A stretch of 64,000 bases of DNA, from positions 1 through 64,000 of the forward strand of contig JBBSQY010000014.1 of assembly GCA_038243585.1 (NCBI GenBank), written 5' to 3'. Shown in pieces: positions 6,286-15,113 of the stretch (position 1 is the first letter of the stretch; the number at the start of each line of letters is the position of its first letter). The notes beneath the pieces were generated by a model that made no database searches, was not told the DNA's origin, and saw only the letters and a list, made by a program, of their open reading frames with translations. Position numbers and translations under genes: made by a program. The DNA is from Candidatus Sumerlaeales bacterium (GTDB taxonomy: Bacteria > Sumerlaeota > Sumerlaeia > Sumerlaeales > Sumerlaeaceae).

Positions 6286-6921
6286 TCACATGTTCATCTG
6301 CCGCTTTTGCGTCCACAGTACGTCGCCCCGGCTGATCGTACCGTTTGTGGCGTCGTAGCTGGCCTGGCCCTCGCCGACGATAGTATCCGGGCCCTTCATA
6401 TCCGGGCCGCTTGAATGAATGCGCCATGATCCATGCTGATTGCGCAGATCGTTAAATGCCATCTGATACCCGCCAGTAATTCTGCTTACCGCATGGTCCC
6501 AGTTTACGTACCAGTACTCCTTCGTTTCTGGCGACTCGATGTTGCCGCCTTTGCCAAAGACGTCTTTCGGCGGCTGGCTGAGGTAGGACACTGGCGTCGT
6601 CAGCGGGTTGTTGCCCATAAATGGTGGAGATACGAAAATGTTGATCATGTCTCCGCCGACATGGAAACTCCAACCGTTTTCCGCATCATCGTTTTGCACA
6701 TAATGATACGCCGGGTAAGACGAGTAATCTGTTCTATAAAACTCAAGACCGGTCGCCACGGTGCGCAGATCAGACTTAGCCCTGGCCACCTTCGCCCGTG
6801 TCTGAGCCTCCAGGAAATTGACGACTGCTATTCCGGCAAGAATGGCTATGATTGCGACCACTATAAGAAGCTCGATCAGCGTAAAACCGCGCCGAAATAA
6901 ATTTAAGCTATGTGGTTGCAT
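6286..6921 (-). CDS. Prepilin-type N-terminal cleavage/methylation domain protein (GspG-like pseudopilin)
   Basis: RRG|FTLIELLIVVAIIAILAGIA class III signal; SGPD and YDATNGTISRGD C-terminal motifs. Confidence 0.88.
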   Translation of the reverse strand: MQPHSLNLFRRGFTLIELLIVVAIIAILAGIAVVNFLEAQTRAKVARAKSDLRTVATGLEFYRTDYSSYPAYHYVQNDDAENGWSFHVGGDMINIFVSPPFMGNNPLTTPVSYLSQPPKDVFGKGGNIESPETKEYWYVNWDHAVSRITGGYQMAFNDLRNQHGSWRIHSSGPDMKGPDTIVGEGQASYDATNGTISRGDVLWTQKRQMNM

Positions 6922-7208
6922 TCTGACACATTCCTGTCATTTGCATTATGGTGTGTAGCAGCAGGTCTTAAACATTTGGCCCTTGTTACGCTGGCGCTTA
7001 GCCTACACAAGCCGTTCACACGTCGGGCAGGTGAGGCCTCCGGCGTAATGGACTTCGCGAGCAATTTCTTCTGCGCTGATAGTGTGTTCAATAGCGGGCG
7101 CGACATAAGGTGTTAAGGCACCAGGCCCCTGTGAAAAGTTATCACTCTGCTTTACAAGATCCGTATCTGTTGTCATTGGGTGGCAGCGCTTTCTATAAAT
7201 TTAGATCA

Positions 7209-7254: not shown

Positions 7255-10200
7255 TTAGTTCGGTCCTGATGCGGTATTGTTCAATTTGTTGCATTCAAGC
7301 GCTATTCCCTCAGCGTCAACGACCGCGATGAGATAGCGACCGCGAGGATCCTGGTCGGGCCGCAGCTTTACCTTGATGTTAACTTTTTTCGATTTCTTGC
7401 CCGGGCACAATGGCTTCAGGGCTTTGACGGACAGGAACTCGTCCGACGAGTCCGGAATTCTGTCGTCGGACAGATAAAGTTGAACCAACGTCGCCGGGGC
7501 GCACTCCGTGCCGATATTGCTTACGGCTATTCTGGATTGAACGCTGAACTTCCACTCCCCTTTCTTCTTATTGTATTTACAGATGGCCCGAGCCTTTGTC
7601 ATCTGCGCCGTCAGATCCGCGCAGTTGGACATTACGCCCACCACGGTACTGAGTTCCACGATGTTGTTCAGCATATCCGGATCCAGCACATCGGAAAGCA
7701 CGCCCGCACGATTAACCAACACGCCGGGTGCAAGAGGGGTCACGGTAATCGTAAGCGTAATAGATTCGCCGACCTCAAGAGCGACACCCGAGACGGATAC
7801 GGCACGGTCTGCTATGACGGCGGCTCCACGATCCGACGCGGCGGACACAACCGTCACATGATCAGGAAGTACGTCCACCAGCGAGGTCAGTGTGCTGCGG
7901 TCCGGGCCGAGGTTGATTGCTTTTACGGTGTAGGTCAGCGGCTGATTTGCGACCGCCGGATCCGGAGTGGCCGACTTGATGATCATCAGATCAGCGCCGG
8001 GGGTCGGCACGATGGCGACGGGCGTTACCGCGGATGCTGAGTTGTTGATGGTAGTCGCCTCTGACAGCGGGCTTGAGACGCTTGCCGTGTTTCTGATTTC
8101 GCCGACAGCGCCAGTACGAACGACAGTGGTGACGGTGACCGTCGCCGACTGATCCGCCGCGAGCCCCTGCAGGAAGGCCGTAAGATTGTTGCCGTCCAGT
8201 TGGGTTGTCCAGGGGCCTGAAGCATCCACGGACTGGACTTCCAGTTCTGCAGGGAGCAGGTCGGCAAGGGTGATGTCTGTGGCGTCATCCGGTCCGAGAT
8301 TGGTGACTCCGATGGTGTAAACCAGAGTCCCACCCACCTGCACAGCAGCAGGCGACGCCTGCATGGTGATGGCAAGGTCGTACTGTGAAAATGGCGCCGT
8401 AATACTCACATAAGCAATGTCATCGTTATTGATTGGGTTTGGATCATTTGTCTGGGAAAATACTTCAGCTAAATTATAAATGAAGCCGATTTCCCGGGCT
8501 CGTGCTACTACTGTCAGTCTCGCCACTTCCTGAGATTGCAGCTCGCTATAAGTTACCGATGCCCCGGACAGTGACGAAGTCAACATTCCCGTTGATGCGC
8601 TGGCAGAGACCAGTTCCAGATTTGGAGGCAGCGTGTCAACAAGCCGGACCGACCTACTTGGGTCAGGACCATTATTGGTAACTGTAATTTCAAACGTTAC
8701 AATTTCACCCAGTACAATATCTCGGGCTGATGCCGTTTTCGTTACATCCAGATCGGCAGCTATTGCGGGAACCACTGTAACCGCTGCGGATGCTTCATTG
8801 TTTGCTGGATTTAAATCTGGCGTATGTGACGTAACTTTAGCAGTATTTACCAAAGGCCCTAAATATACGACCCTTGCTACTATGTTTAGTGTCGCTGTTT
8901 CTCCAACATTTAAAGTTGGAATAGTTAAAGTTACCTCGCTATTAGATGATCGTACCGTGCCAGTCGACGCATTAGCGGAAATAAGATACGTACCCCAGGG
9001 CAGTGCATCAGTTACCTTGACCATTGTAGCCGGATTTGGCCCGTTATTTGTCGTAACTATCGTAAAATTGACGAATGAGAAGACCACCGCTTCTGAAGCC
9101 GACGCTGATTTACTAACCGACAGATCAGCCTCCTGAAACAGTTGATAACCGAAGGGGTTAGACATGTTCACATCTACGTTTTCTTCAATAAGTATGGAGT
9201 ATGGCATATTTCCTGTCGTCAGTTTAAACCCTGTAGGAAGAGTGTCAGAAATTATGTTCAGTACAGCAATGCCTTCCGGTAAAATAGCTTCAAATTTCCC
9301 AGATGTATCAGATACAAGTATCCTCGTTGTTTGAAGCGAATCAGTAACAAGCAGGGACACGTTCTCTAAGGGGCTCTCTTCGGGTGAAAAGAATCCGTCT
9401 CCATTCAAATCATTAAAAACCGTTCCACGATATAAGCCAGTGGGCACCGCTAGCTTTACGCCAACGGGCTGCGCCGTGGCTGTAGTTGGATTTTCATCAA
9501 GACCGACATCGATGATTTGAACTACGGTATCGGAGGTTGTAACGGTGCTTCCGGGAGGCAGCGTGGAGGTGAGAACTTCCACGCGTTTGCGGCCGGTGAT
9601 GATGGTCGTCGTGTAGCGGCCGTCGGCGTCGGTCATTACCTCTCCGCCTGCTTCAACCACTTGTCTGGCTAGCGCAGGAATCGGCTCGTCAGTAATAGAA
9701 ATCGTAACACCAGGCAGTCCCGGCTCGCCTAAATCCTGCACACCATTGTCGTTCACATCATTAAAGATCTGACCTTCGAGAAATCCGACTCCGACAAAGC
9801 CTACAGGCTCTGCCTCAACGGATTGATTCAGGCCCAGCGTGATAGATTGAGTGGTGTTTTCCGTGGTGACGACAGAGTTCGGGAAGAAGCTTTCCGGAAT
9901 GACGACATAATAGACGCCGGGATCGAGGAGGGCGGTGTAATTGCCCGCGTCGTCGGAAACCTGTGTGAAGATGGCGGAGTCCGAGGCCCGGGTCAGCGTG
10001 ACTGTTGTATCGGGCAATGGGAAATCAAATCCGTCTTTTAGGCCGTTGGCGTTGATATCGAAATATATATGGCCGTGGATGTCCTGAACCGGCGCAGCCT
10101 CGGAAACGGTGACAGTAAATGTGCATGTAGAGGTCGTCCCCGCGGCGTCTGTGGCCGTGCTTTGCACCGTTGTCTGACCAACAGGGAAAGTCGATCCGGA

Positions 10201-13200
10201 GGCGGGATTGCTGACGATGGTTGTCGTTGAGCAATTGTCGGTCGCGGTAACGGTGAAGCTGACAGGCATGCCAGTCTGATTCCGCTCGGCCACGAGGAAG
10301 ATATTTTCCGGACATGTGATTACCGGTGGCTGAGTATCGCGCACTTCAATTGTCATACTGCAGGTCGACTGATTTCCAAATGTATCCGTTGCAGTAGTGA
10401 TTACGTCCGTAAAGCCTACTGGAAAACGTGAACCGGACGGTGCGCTGGACTCAACGACTGAGGGTGTGCAATTGTCTTCATGTCCCACAAAGAAAAAGAC
10501 TTGAGCATCACAGAGACCAGGTTCAGCATTTACTGGGTCTACGCGTCCGCAATTAAGTAGAGGTGGCTGGGTATCACGCACCGTTACGGTGAAGGAGCAT
10601 GTTGTCTGGTTGCCAGCGGCGTCGGTGGCGGTGTTCAACACTGTCGTCACTCCGACAGGCAGTCGTGAGCCGGACGGCGGAACCGCCGTTACCGTTACGG
10701 TCGAACAGGAATCAAACGCCTGGGCGTCCCGGACTCCGAAGATTCCAGGCGCAAAGTTTTGGTTTTGCGGGGAATCATAAACTACAAGGGCGTCGCAGAG
10801 TCCCGGTTCTGCATCTACTACCATGTTTTGTGGGCAGGCAATAAACGGCGGCACTCGATCCAGCACTGTTACATTGAAGGAGCATACCGTTGTCGCGCCG
10901 TCCCGAACATAGACAGGCGTGGTGCCCACAGGGAAGAACGATCCGGAGGGCGGATCATAAGTCACATCCAGACACGTGCCACCGACTGGAGTTGCGTCGG
11001 GATATGCAACCTCGATACCGCACTGTCCGAAATTGGACGAAGCTGTTTCGGTGGTGATGTCATCGGGACAGGAAAGAATGCATGGCCCGCATTGACTTGC
11101 GCCACCATAAATCACATAGATGGAACTCGAATCACCAGAGTCGTCCCCATCCAGATACGCACCCACGAACACGTCATCATAACCATCGTTGTTGATGTCG
11201 CCAGCGGAAGAAACGATATAGCCCGCCTGCTTACCCGCTGCCGACCCGTCAATGCGATATCCAAAGGAATTCGAGGAGGCGAAATCCGCCAAATCAATAT
11301 TGCTGATTCCGACGTTCCTGCCAAAAATCACGTAGCTTGAGCCGGAAGCGTAGCGCCCGTTATTACTGGCCCAAAGAGCCCCCACAATGACATCGTCAAA
11401 ACCATCGCTGTTTACGTCACCTGCGGAAGAAACGCTACTTCCAGACTGGTCAAACGCCGCCGCCCCGTCGATTCGAAAACCGGCGGAGGAGGCCGCTGTG
11501 AAATTGGCTAGGTCAATATTGCCGAACCCACCAGCTTTTCCGAAGATCACGTAGCTGGAACCCGAAAGGTTACGCCCGTTGTTCCCAGCGGACAGAGCCC
11601 CTATAATAACGTCATCATAGCCGTCGCCATTGACGTCGCCCGCAGAAGAAGCGCCGCCGGCATTATCAAGCGCCGCCCCGTCAATGCGGAATCCGGCGGC
11701 ATTCGCCCCTGTGAAAGTAGCAAGGTCAATATTGACGAACCCAACGGCTTTACCGAAAATAACGTAAGTCGATCCAGATCGAGGCCGCCCGTTGTTGCCC
11801 GCCTCCCTGGCTCCCACCACAACATCATCATATCCATCGCTGTTTACGTCTCCTGCGGAGGAAACACTACCGCCGGATTGATCACCCGCCGTAGCCCCGT
11901 CCATGCGAAAACCAGCGGCATCCGAACTTGTAAAATTTAGCAAATCGACATTGCTAAACCCCCCAGCCTTTCCAAAAATAACATAACTGGAACCGGAAGA
12001 TCCGGGGCCATTATTGTCTGCGCCCCGAGCCCCCACAATCATGTCGTCATAGCCGTCGCTGTTGACGTCGCCCGCGGAAGAAATGCTACCGCCGGATTGA
12101 TCACCCGCCGCGGCACCGTCAATGCGGAATCCAACGGCATCCGCTGCTGTGAAATTCAGCAAGTCGATATTGCTGACGCCGCCGGCTTTTCCGAAGATGA
12201 CATAGCTGGAGCCGGATAAGCTGCGTCCATTGTTCCCCGCATTCTGAGCCCCTACAATCAGGTCGTCGTAGCCGTCGCCGTTGACATCGCCCGCGGAAGA
12301 AACGCTAGCGCCGGACTGATCATTCACCTCTGCCCCGTCTATGCGAAACCCAGTGGAATCTGAGGTGGTGAAGTCAGGCAGGTCGAAATTACCGAACCCG
12401 CCGACTTTCCCGAATATTACGTAGCTAGAGCCGGAGTCGGCGCGTCCATTGTTGTCGGCATTTGGCAATCCCAGGATCACATCATCAAAGCCGTCCCTGT
12501 TTAAGTCTCCTGCGGAGGAGACGCTAAAATAGGCCTCGTTATTGGACGGCCCATCGATACGGAATCCGCGGCTGTCCGGGGATTCAAAATCCGCCAGGTC
12601 GATGTTTTGCTCCTTGGAAACCGTAACACTAAACGAGCAGGTCGTCATATTGCCGGCGGCGTCGGTCGCCGTGGTGATGACATCTGTCACGCCGGGGAAG
12701 AATTCCGAGCCGGACTGCGGATCTGAAACGACTGTCGCCCGGCCGCAACTTTCAAAGGCCCGGACTGAGAATCTTACCGGCCTGCTGCACTCATCTGCTC
12801 CCAGGCTAATAAAAATGGGCTCGGGACAATTGAGGTACGGAGCGGTTGTGTCGGAAACTGTAACGTTGAAAGTGCAGGTTGTGGTGCCGTCGCTAACGGT
12901 GACAGAGTGGACCCCAACGGGGAAAAAAGATCCTGAAGGCGGATCATATTGCAGTTCGCCGCATTCGCCGCTCATCTGCGCATTCGGGTAGTCCACACGA
13001 TTCCCGCACTCATCAGAGGAGATTCCGGAAAATACATCCGCCGGACACTCAAGCACGCATGGCAATGCGGCAATAGTGAAGCTTTGCTCTGGCGCGAAAC
13101 GGGATCCTGCGAACGCGGTGTCGATAGACTGGACACTCCAATAGTAGGTGCTTGGTTCCAGGCCGACGATGGTTCGGCTAGTGATTATTTCTGCGTTGCC

Positions 13201-14844
13201 TATTGCGGGCACAAGACGGTAGCCGTTGCTGTCTCCCTCGCCAGAGTTGGCCATGGGACTGACGACATCTGAGATTCCTGGCGCCGTCCCAAGGCGCAGA
13301 TTATAATTAAGCCCTGAAGTGGATGTTTGGGCATCTGAAGCCGACAGCCAGCGCAAAGTCACGCTGCTTTCGCCGGTCTCGGCGGTCAGGCTTTCCGGAG
13401 TTGATGGAGTTGTGTTGCGGACATCACTGTTATTACTGTAGATGTTGCCTGCGCTTTCATCGTCAATGTCTCCACCGGTCAGCAAAATATCAAGGTCACC
13501 GTCATTATCATAGTCACCCCAGGTCGCGGTGGACATATAAAGTCCGCGGTACTCGACAGGAATACCTGACTCCGACGCGGTGAGCGAGGCAAAATTGTTT
13601 CCATCATTGCGGTACAATAACGAGAGCTCCTCACCAAGACCGGTCATCAAAAGGTCAAGGTCGCCGTCGTTGTCATAGTCCCCAAATGCCAGGGAACTGT
13701 CAACAACCGGAGGCAAACCGCTTTCCGTCGCCGTGAACACATTGCCGGGATCATTTCGATAAAGATTTGTTTTATAGGCGCCGCCGAAATTTATGCCTGT
13801 CGTAAACAGGTCAAGATCGCCGTCGTTATCATAGTCTGCCCATACGATGGCGCCTCTATAAAGTCCTTCAATACCGGCGTTCACATCAGTAAATACGCCA
13901 TTCCCATCGTTTCGGCGCAGAGCGGCGAATTGGTCACGGCCGCTGGAAAGGATGTCCAGGTCGCCGTCATTGTCATAATCGGCCCACGCTGCGTTGGAAT
14001 CCTCTCCCACGCTGAAATTGGCAAGACCGGTAAACGATCCGTCATTATTTTGATAGATGTAGACCATACCGTCATCGTTGACATCATCTCCCGACAGCAA
14101 AACATCCAAGTCTCCGTCGTTGTCAACATCACCCCAGGCAACATCAAGCCCGTATGATCCTGTCACGAGGCCGGCGTTAATATTGACAAACACACCATTG
14201 TCGTTGCGGTAAATGTCTGATATAGTGCCGCCATTGACCCGGCCGGAAATCAACAGATCCAGGTCGCCGTCGTTGTCATAATCCCCCCAGGCCAACCCGG
14301 CGTCATAAGTCCCCGGCAGGCCCGCGTTGATATCCGTAAACGCTCCGCCGTCGTTGCGATAAATTCTAGTAATGATATCTTCCGAGCCGTAACCGGTCAC
14401 AACAAAATCCAGGTCGCCGTCCGCGTCGTAGTCTCCCCAGGCCGACGCGCCATTTGCCACCTGTGGTATCGCCGCCTCGATATCCGTAAATAGGAACCGG
14501 AGACGCAGATGCAAAGTGCTTTCGCTCTGGATATTGTAGTCGGCAAGCGTGCGACCGTCTTCCAGATACTTGCCCGCAAAAACCAAACGTTGCTGGTCGG
14601 GGGGAATGCCTTCCTTATCCTGAATTTTCGTCTTTACGTTTTCAATTGTGTCATTGGCATCGACTTCCAGGGCAATGGTTTTTCCTGTAAGCGTCTTTAC
14701 GAATATCTGCATGGCATCGGCCTGGCCGGCCGCCGCAAATAGGAATAGCGCGATGAAAAACCTCGTGGCAATCCGCCGCAAGATGACCGGTATCTCCGTC
14801 GTGTGATTTCCGGTTCCGTTTGCTGCGAAGTTGTCAAAAGTCAA
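7255..14844 (-). CDS. Giant secreted multidomain surface protein: signal peptide, ubiquitin domain, 7x FG-GAP propeller, FN3-like, 2x HYR, 7x integrin-alpha-type FG-GAP, 4x HYR, 3x SdrD-B-like, 4x DUF11, CARDB-like C-terminus
   Basis: Uninterrupted 2529-aa ORF with AGGA 9 nt before the TTG start. Repeat motifs counted in the translation: [11 protein letters not shown] x7, AGDVNxDGYDD x7, TCxFxVTV-like x6, GxIFxDxNxxG-like x3, (A/Y)DLxxx(K/M)xA(S/T) x4. Confidence 0.9.
14497..14712 (-). other. Eukaryote-type ubiquitin domain (residues 45-116 of the giant protein)
   Basis: [72 protein letters not shown]; 62/72 identical to human ubiquitin by manual alignment. Confidence 0.97.
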
Positions 14845-15113
14845 TTTTCATCGTCCTGTTTAATGTTTTGTTTGCGCATATAATAATAAGAGTGCCAAAT
14901 TGAGCGTCAACGTAAAACCGGATTTAAAGGTACGATTTATGAACCTCCGGATCGAACTCGGCGCTGCTTTGCAAATGTTCTTCCTGAACCGGCTGGAAAT
15001 GAGAGTTTGTGCTGATGTTATGTGTCGCCTGTAAACGCCTTAAGCCTTCGCGCCCGCCTTGCCGCTATCACCAGTTGACGGGGCGCGCTTTTCTCTGGTG
15101 TGCTTTCTCTATC

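What the first reader, a model, noticed from the sequence alone, without database searches (positions are those of the whole stretch)
14480..14590. Substitutions target the conjugation and recognition surfaces of ubiquitin: no GG, K63S, I44V, Q49Y, V70R
Seen: the C-terminus reads [12 protein letters not shown] rather than LHLVLRLRGG. K63 is Ser, while K6, K11, K27, K29, K33 and K48 are retained. The L8/I44/V70 patch carries I44V and V70R (alternatively a V70-L71 deletion), and nearby Q49 is Tyr. Known: GG is needed for E1 activation and DUB cleavage, and the I44 patch binds most ubiquitin receptors. Inference: the domain cannot be conjugated or released by DUBs and may have a re-tuned binding face. 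No E1/E2/RING/JAB genes are in the window, so this is not a local ubiquitination operon.
Basis: partly seen in the sequence, partly recalled or inferred. Interest (0 to 1): 0.7.

Follow-up and report, generated by a model that had tools for sequence, protein, structure and literature searches.

The report
Exported bacterial ubiquitin with worn face
A bacterium caps a giant exported protein with a near-copy of eukaryotic ubiquitin whose attachment tail is gone and whose main binding face is altered; related bacterial proteins often lose these two features together, which looks more like release from ubiquitin's old job than redesign.

Summary
The residues are as described. The domain (62/72 identical to human-type ubiquitin) sits directly behind a predicted signal peptide and runs without a linker into an FG-GAP propeller of a 2,529-aa exported protein. 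'No GG' is that fusion joint. No E2 was found; the one ThiF looks like MoeB and the one JAB like RadC. Among 86 close prokaryotic signal-peptide-ubiquitin relatives, K63 is kept in 83, Q49Y occurs in 0 and V70R in 1, so these are nearly private. But I44 and Q49 change together (13 versus 5 expected; 10 of 41 lineages), mostly where the tail is lost early, and the I44 face changes about twice as fast as other surface that eukaryotes hold fixed, with dN/dS 0.21. Best reading: a non-conjugatable surface cap with a relaxed I44 face; re-tuning is not excluded. My searches found no paper on the family; the scan met it before on other DNA.

The parts
7255..14844 (-). Whole ORF, 2,529 aa: signal peptide, ubiquitin, FG-GAP propeller, FN3-like stretch, HYR repeats, second FG-GAP propeller, HYR, SdrD-B-like, DUF11 repeats, CARDB-like end
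   Evidence: FN3-like inferred from Pfam PF00041 in relatives
14713..14781 (-). Predicted Sec signal peptide (23 aa if the TTG at 14781 is the start), ending A-D-A right before ubiquitin M1
   Evidence: sequence; no signal-peptide predictor was run; 81 of 86 close relatives have an A-x-A-like site directly before M1
14497..14712 (-). Ubiquitin domain, residues 1-72, 62/72 identical to human-type ubiquitin
   Evidence: model matches PDB ubiquitins at rmsd 0.5-1.2 A
14581..14583 (-). I44V, recurrent in the family (12 of 86 close relatives; 0 of 51 control ubiquitins)
14566..14568 (-). Q49Y: site often changed (22 of 86) but Tyr seen in 0 of 105; at least two base changes from a Gln codon
14524..14526 (-). 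K63S: nearly private; K63 kept in 83 of 86 close relatives; at least two base changes
14503..14505 (-). V70R: site often changed (18 of 86), Arg in 1 of 86 close and 5 of 105 in all; at least two base changes
14485..14496 (-). Fusion joint: FLFT in place of LRGG; from about L74/F75 the chain is already propeller blade 1, with no linker
13417..14493 (-). First FG-GAP/VCBS-type beta-propeller (approximate limits)
   Evidence: best fold match CRTAC1, PDB 9etn, E 7e-15
7267..7545 (-). Lys-rich CARDB-like C-terminal domain shared with three paralogues in this genome and with proteins of same-genus genomes; candidate lineage-specific anchoring or sorting domain (inferred)

Best explanation
This is one member of a widespread set of prokaryotic exported proteins whose mature chain starts at ubiquitin M1. 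Here the ubiquitin gene was joined, at about residue 72-73, to a lineage-native FG-GAP/HYR/DUF11 surface protein. After export and signal-peptide cleavage (inferred) it sits as a folded, non-cleavable cap at the tip of the protein. It cannot be adenylated or cut off. Because it no longer meets E1, DUBs or I44-patch receptors, the I44/Q49/V70/tail surface has been released from constraint and has eroded as one unit, as in other early-tail-loss relatives. Selection still keeps the fold and, family-wide, a different set of residues (Q2, F4, T55, D58, Q62, K63, T66). Most likely role: a stable display or capping module that works through its fold or a non-I44 surface, not a mimic for the ubiquitin cascade. 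Shown: sequence, fusion joint, no E2 found, family patterns, purifying selection. Inferred: export, surface position, loss of binding, capping role.
For: Joint and architecture. One copy in the genome and 1 of 75 genomes in the phylum; of the 120 best long relatives only this protein carries both ubiquitin and FG-GAP domains; codon use fits the host (70th percentile). Family dN/dS 0.14 over 25 disjoint pairs: core 0.06, I44 face 0.21, other eukaryote-invariant surface 0.10; ubiquitin is more conserved than its fused partner in 16 of 16 hand-picked pairs. Lineage-weighted change 0.14 on the face versus 0.065 elsewhere, p 0.004. Among 76 fused relatives, I44 changes in 14 of 34 whose tail match ends by residue 71, 2 of 22 ending at 72-73 and 0 of 20 ending at 74-76, at similar background divergence (6.9, 5.7, 6.4 changes). 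Residue 49 goes to V, E, T, L, M, A, I or Y, not to one residue.
Against: No function was tested. K63S lies among the residues the family conserves, which this reading does not explain. Q49Y, K63S and V70R each need at least two base changes. I44 mostly goes to V (12 of 16), which could be convergence. Pooled dN/dS can hide short bursts of positive selection, and some of the 25 pairs may not be true relatives. The face set was fixed after I had seen the per-site counts; with only L8/I44/H68/V70 the contrast is p 0.087. The tail classes partly overlap the face (V70, H68). In later-fetched loci, L272 has I44V without a Q49 change.
Confidence: 0.55

Rival explanations
1. Re-tuned binding face: V44, Y49, R70 and S63 were selected to bind a new outside partner, like a natural ubiquitin variant.
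For: Four of the five changes at non-core sites fixed in the control lie on the face or at a lysine. I44V plus a Q49 change recurs in 7 lineages; co-change of 44/49 is 13 versus 5.0 expected under a margin-preserving shuffle, 0 of 2,000 shuffles reaching it. Three changes need two bases each.
Against: Face dN/dS 0.21. The new residues at 49 and 70 differ between lineages; Q49Y 0 of 105, K63S 2 of 105. I44 and Q49 are cross-strand neighbours (recalled; consistent with the strand layout), so local compensation alone can give co-change.
Confidence: 0.2
2. The changes fit the ubiquitin onto its own propeller: with no linker, the tail-side face (V44, Y49, R70, R72) packs against the acidic FG-GAP blades.
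For: Zero-length linker; face changes track early tail loss, that is, a close joint; R70 and R72 are basic and the blades are Asp-rich (sequence).
Against: Face changes also occur in members with only a short sorting tail after ubiquitin (L247, L248). The model's pTM of 0.84 is about what a free domain would give (my arithmetic, 407/480), and no interface could be read from it.
Confidence: 0.12
3. The domain in this genome has no function left and is decaying; all changes are drift.
For: It is private to this genome within its phylum; it carries rare changes (K63S, Q49Y).
Against: None of the 16 core positions is changed although synonymous sites are near saturation against every relative (pS at least 0.62, pN about 0.10) and codon use has adapted to the host.
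Confidence: 0.1
4. Artefact: eukaryotic DNA mis-joined into the assembly, or part of a bacterial ubiquitination system.
For: Ubiquitin contaminants are common: many of the 80 loci are polyubiquitin on tiny contigs. The genome is about 90% complete. The joint was not checked on reads.
Against: In frame between a signal peptide and blade 1; host-like codons; contig GC 0.543 versus genome mean 0.527, sd 0.018; nearest control ubiquitin differs at 9 sites; 105 distinct relatives have the same design; no E2 found.
Confidence: 0.03

Closest known systems
BfUbb / BoUbb, secreted ubiquitin homologues of Bacteroides fragilis and B. ovatus (PMC3352274, PMC5705921, PMC11467351; passages read)
   Same: Eukaryote-type ubiquitin in a bacterium, signal peptide cut so that the mature chain starts at ubiquitin M1, no terminal glycines, no conjugation enzymes in the genome.
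   Different: BfUbb is a free 76-aa antibacterial protein, 63% identical to human ubiquitin, with a C-terminal disulfide needed for killing. This domain is 86% identical, has no cysteine and is fixed to about 2,400 further residues.
Canonical ubiquitin and cleavable ubiquitin precursors (polyubiquitin, Ub-eL40, Ub-eS31)
   Same: Fold (rmsd 0.5-1.2 A), 62 of 72 residues, six of seven lysines, N-terminal position in a fusion.
   Different: No LRGG joint; exported; I44, Q49, K63 and V70 changed, which are kept in 51, 51, 51 and 50 of 51 control ubiquitins.
Prokaryotic signal peptide-ubiquitin fusion proteins (unnamed; RefSeq 'ubiquitin family protein', e.g. WP_013483628 of Ruminococcus albus 7)
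   Same: Same design: signal peptide, ubiquitin from M1, then an unrelated exported module (autotransporter, IPTL-CTERM, LPXTG-like and others).
   Different: FG-GAP partner not seen in another member examined; Q49Y unique; K63S and V70R rare.
Bacterial ubiquitination-like operons (Bil/Bub; PMC11601596 seen in a search listing only, otherwise recalled)
   Same: Beta-grasp protein in a bacterium.
   Different: Those carry divergent Ubls with E1, E2 and peptidase genes beside them (recalled); none was found here.

Membership tests
Canonical ubiquitin modifier | Ubiquitin fold and sequence | tested here: met
Canonical ubiquitin modifier | Free or releasable C-terminal G75-G76 | tested here: not met
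   FLFT, start of propeller blade 1
Canonical ubiquitin modifier | Intact L8/I44/H68/V70 patch | tested here: not met
   I44V and V70R; L8 and H68 kept
Canonical or bacterial (Bil/Bub) conjugation system | E1, E2 and DUB genes in the locus or genome | tested here: not met
   UQ_con 0 (positive), Prok-E2_B 0 without control, single ThiF and JAB hits read as MoeB-like and RadC-like; RING/E3 families not searched; genome about 90% complete
BUbb (BfUbb/BoUbb) | Signal peptide ending directly before M1; no GG | tested here: met
   sequence; cleavage predicted by eye, not shown
BUbb (BfUbb/BoUbb) | Stand-alone protein of about 76 aa | tested here: not met
   2,529-aa ORF
BUbb (BfUbb/BoUbb) | C-terminal disulfide | tested here: not met
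   0 Cys in the domain; first Cys at mature residue 552; feature from PMC11467351
BUbb (BfUbb/BoUbb) | Antibacterial activity through a periplasmic PPIase | not testable with these tools
   needs an assay
Prokaryotic signal peptide-ubiquitin fusions (unnamed) | Signal peptide, near-canonical ubiquitin from M1, unrelated exported C-terminal module | tested here: met

The most novel reading that the evidence does not exclude
Near-canonical ubiquitin is a common extracellular binding module of bacteria and comes in two functional classes: one keeps the I44 face and tail to engage ubiquitin-reading proteins (of protists or hosts, or a co-encoded bacterial propeller as in Dyella relatives), and one, including this protein, has had the I44/Q49/V70 face re-specified for new partners, making a natural library of ubiquitin variants.
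Probability: 0.2. Interest if true: 0.8.

Novelty: new variant of a known kind. Interest (0 to 1): 0.5.

Why it matters
A 2017 paper calls B. fragilis 'one of a few bacteria' with a eukaryotic-like ubiquitin (PMC5705921). Here a Pfam ubiquitin match was found in 4 of 201 to 17 of 134 genomes of eight sampled families, mostly as exported fusions under purifying selection. These copies are a natural experiment on which ubiquitin surfaces matter once conjugation is gone: the I44 face and tail erode together while K63, D58, F4 and T66 stay. That points to where an unknown bacterial function lies and gives cultured test cases (Dyella, R. albus 7).

Tried and rejected
Reads over the fusion joints could not be examined, so the joints rest on the assembly; no RNA holder was listed, which says nothing on expression. 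A monophyly test for bacterial versus eukaryotic/viral copies did not finish; origin and number of transfers are open. The second partner tree failed; the first has weak support (41-72 on the relevant nodes). A 511-aa homologue search returned only polyubiquitins among its best 120, so it cannot say whether a shorter ubiquitin-FG-GAP fusion exists. The metagenome scan gave no bacterial fusions among its 79 loci and served as the control. Phage collection: no match; plasmids: 2 records. Roscoe 2013 was not held; the three supplements of PMC4862753 were listed, not read, so no per-residue fitness values were used. No paper held 'ubiquitin variant' with Q49Y, I44V or V70R, so likeness to engineered variants is recall only. 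Rejected: K63 as a target; GG loss as substitution; a local ubiquitination operon; membership in BUbb.

Full report
Observation. The stretch lies in a 2,529-aa minus-strand ORF, 14844..7255. Residues 45-116 are ubiquitin (Pfam E 5e-27), 62 of 72 identical to the human-type sequence. The ten differences are T14A, E18D, P19A, S20N, A28T, I44V, Q49Y, S57A, K63S and V70R; FLFT stands where LRGG would be. F75-T76-D77-I78 matches the xFTDI start of later propeller blades, so the tail was displaced by fusion, with no linker. An AlphaFold model of mature residues 1-480 (pLDDT 90) keeps the ubiquitin fold (rmsd 0.5-1.2 A to PDB ubiquitins) followed by a propeller closest to CRTAC1.

Context. A hydrophobic stretch ending A-D-A precedes M1; I read it as a Sec signal peptide (by eye). 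The rest is FG-GAP, HYR, SdrD-B-like, DUF11 and CARDB domains. The C-terminal part has three paralogues in the genome, one 92% identical and cut by a contig end, and matches in 5 of 5 same-family genomes, so the carrier is native. Ubiquitin is single-copy and found in 1 of 61 relatives and 1 of 75 phylum genomes, the own genome included. Of the 120 best long relatives only this protein has both ubiquitin and FG-GAP domains. Its codon use fits the host (70th percentile of 4,712 windows). No UQ_con or Prok-E2_B match was found; UQ_con does ring in 1 of 5 other genomes. The one ThiF protein looks like MoeB with a rhodanese tail and the weak JAB hit like RadC (names from my reading). The genome is about 90% complete and E3 families were not searched.

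Family. These gave 51 signal-peptide ubiquitin domains besides ours, 12 other non-polyubiquitin hits, and polyubiquitin on short contigs, which I dropped as likely contaminants (L051 removed by hand). Because that scan favours close hits, I added Pfam scans of families that hold a known member: 17 of 134, 13 of 201, 8 of 164, 4 of 201, 4 of 201, 17 of 251 and 15 of 201 genomes matched, and later 7 of 133. Pooled without there are 105 distinct relatives, 86 within 20 differences. The control is 51 distinct eukaryote- or virus-type ubiquitins from 79 metagenome loci, picked for closeness to the query, so their invariance is overstated.

Testing 'targeted'. Tail: G75-G76 is kept in 11 of 105, LRGG in 10; loss is the norm. 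0 of 3 LRGG-keeping genomes have an E2, and none of 30 proteins from eight such or related loci (27 neighbours, 3 ubiquitin fusions; 30 of the 58 ORFs listed) matched an E1, E2 or JAB family. Lysines: K63 is kept in 83 of 86, better than K48 (78) or K6 (70). Exact residues: I44V 12 of 86, Q49Y 0, K63S 1, V70R 1. Limited to non-core sites fixed in the control, P is 0.008-0.057, so a weak signal exists.

The family-level signal is clearer. I44 and Q49 change together in 13 of 86 against 5.0 expected when row and column totals are kept (0 of 2,000 shuffles), with 44/72, 49/72, 44/70 and 49/70 also in excess and 44/63 at zero. The 44/49 link holds in the Pfam-scan subset (7, 3, 5, 34; p 0.0008) and with one member per lineage (median p 0.001; 10 of 41 lineages). 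Weighted by lineage, ten face sites change at 0.14 versus 0.065 for 25 other control-invariant surface sites (p 0.004; 0.018 without 70 and 72; 0.087 for the four-residue patch); a tree-based count against all 34 other surface sites was not significant (p 0.10). The face set, core list and spatial grouping are recalled from the ubiquitin structure and were fixed after I saw. Face change follows tail loss: I44 changes in 14 of 34, 2 of 22 and 0 of 20 fused members whose tail match ends by 71, at 72-73 and at 74-76; 0 of 10 stand-alone copies have a face change. Pooled dN/dS over 25 disjoint pairs is 0.14, the face 0.21, other invariant surface 0.10, core 0.06. In the later set, L272 has I44V with early tail loss but keeps Q49: for the tail link, against the 44/49 link.

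Mechanism. Most likely (0.55) the domain is a non-cleavable cap at the tip of an exported surface protein whose I44 face and tail were released together once it stopped meeting ubiquitin enzymes and receptors. The fold, and family-wide Q2, F4, T55, D58, Q62, K63 and T66, remain constrained. In yeast the face opposite the patch tolerates mutation while R42, I44, K48 and the GG are the sensitive sites (PMC4862753, passages), so the bacterial pattern partly inverts the eukaryotic one and hints at a use away from I44. K63S in this protein does not fit and stays unexplained. Rivals: re-tuned face (0.2), packing on its own propeller (0.12), decay (0.1), artefact or local system (0.03).

Comparison. 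It resembles BfUbb in having a signal peptide directly before M1 and no GG (PMC3352274, PMC5705921; passages) but fails membership: not stand-alone, and no cysteine for the disulfide that BfUbb needs (PMC11467351; passages). It is not a cleavable precursor or part of a conjugation operon. Searches and passages of one review (PMC11354881) found no description of the fusion family or of the face-and-tail pattern; subscription papers, including the primary BfUbb structure paper, and supplements were not seen and could list such homologues. RefSeq already labels members 'ubiquitin family protein'. The scan noted the family on other DNA before and this same stretch in another note.

Verdict. Observation confirmed; interpretation partly supported. 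New variant of a known kind. Interest 0.5, carried by the family pattern more than by this protein's own residues.

Noticed in passing
L048:6758-8228; also L038, L059/L181, L182, L184-L188, L190: In Dyella and relatives all 10 stand-alone secreted ubiquitins lie in the same locus as a conserved secreted protein of about 370 aa (no Pfam match; propeller-like by features), directly behind it where checked (L048, L038, L059). The ubiquitins keep the whole I44 face; 5 end in LRGG, 4 stop at L73, 1 ends LRGY. They are 87-97% identical to the first, the partner 56-91%. A candidate partner; binding was not modelled.
   Followed up: partly
window 14834-14851 (-): An ATG behind an AGGA motif opens a five-codon frame one base out of register with the long ORF; the real start may be the TTG at 14781. 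Could be a short upstream ORF or an assembly slip.
   Followed up: no
G000:C67:3-1271 (+): Paralogue 92% identical to the last 423 aa, cut by the contig start; whether it also begins with ubiquitin is unknown.
   Followed up: partly
G000 C24, C39, C67; G001, G002: A Lys-rich CARDB-like C-terminal domain recurs on several exported proteins of this genus (about ten matches in G002); possible lineage-specific sorting domain.
   Followed up: partly
L053:878-1093: An archaeal (Methanothrix) contig carries the same signal peptide-ubiquitin design on a protein of about 1,500 aa.
   Followed up: no
L275 (G1533:C28): Four tandem divergent ubiquitin domains behind one signal peptide, followed by a short C-terminal domain.
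   Followed up: no
L226 (G1105:C22:30899-31909): Three small tandem genes, each with a leader ending ELVIGG followed by a divergent ubiquitin-like domain; looks like a double-glycine leader (my reading).
   Followed up: no
L270:3923-4663: Ruminococcus albus 7 plasmid pRUMAL01 encodes a signal peptide-ubiquitin fusion, a cultured test case.
   Followed up: partly
window 6801-6900: A stretch of about 90 bases overlapping the start region of the pilin-like gene (6289-6936, N_methyl motif) has 73-86% matches at six other places in the genome, probably a family of prepilin-type genes.
   Followed up: no
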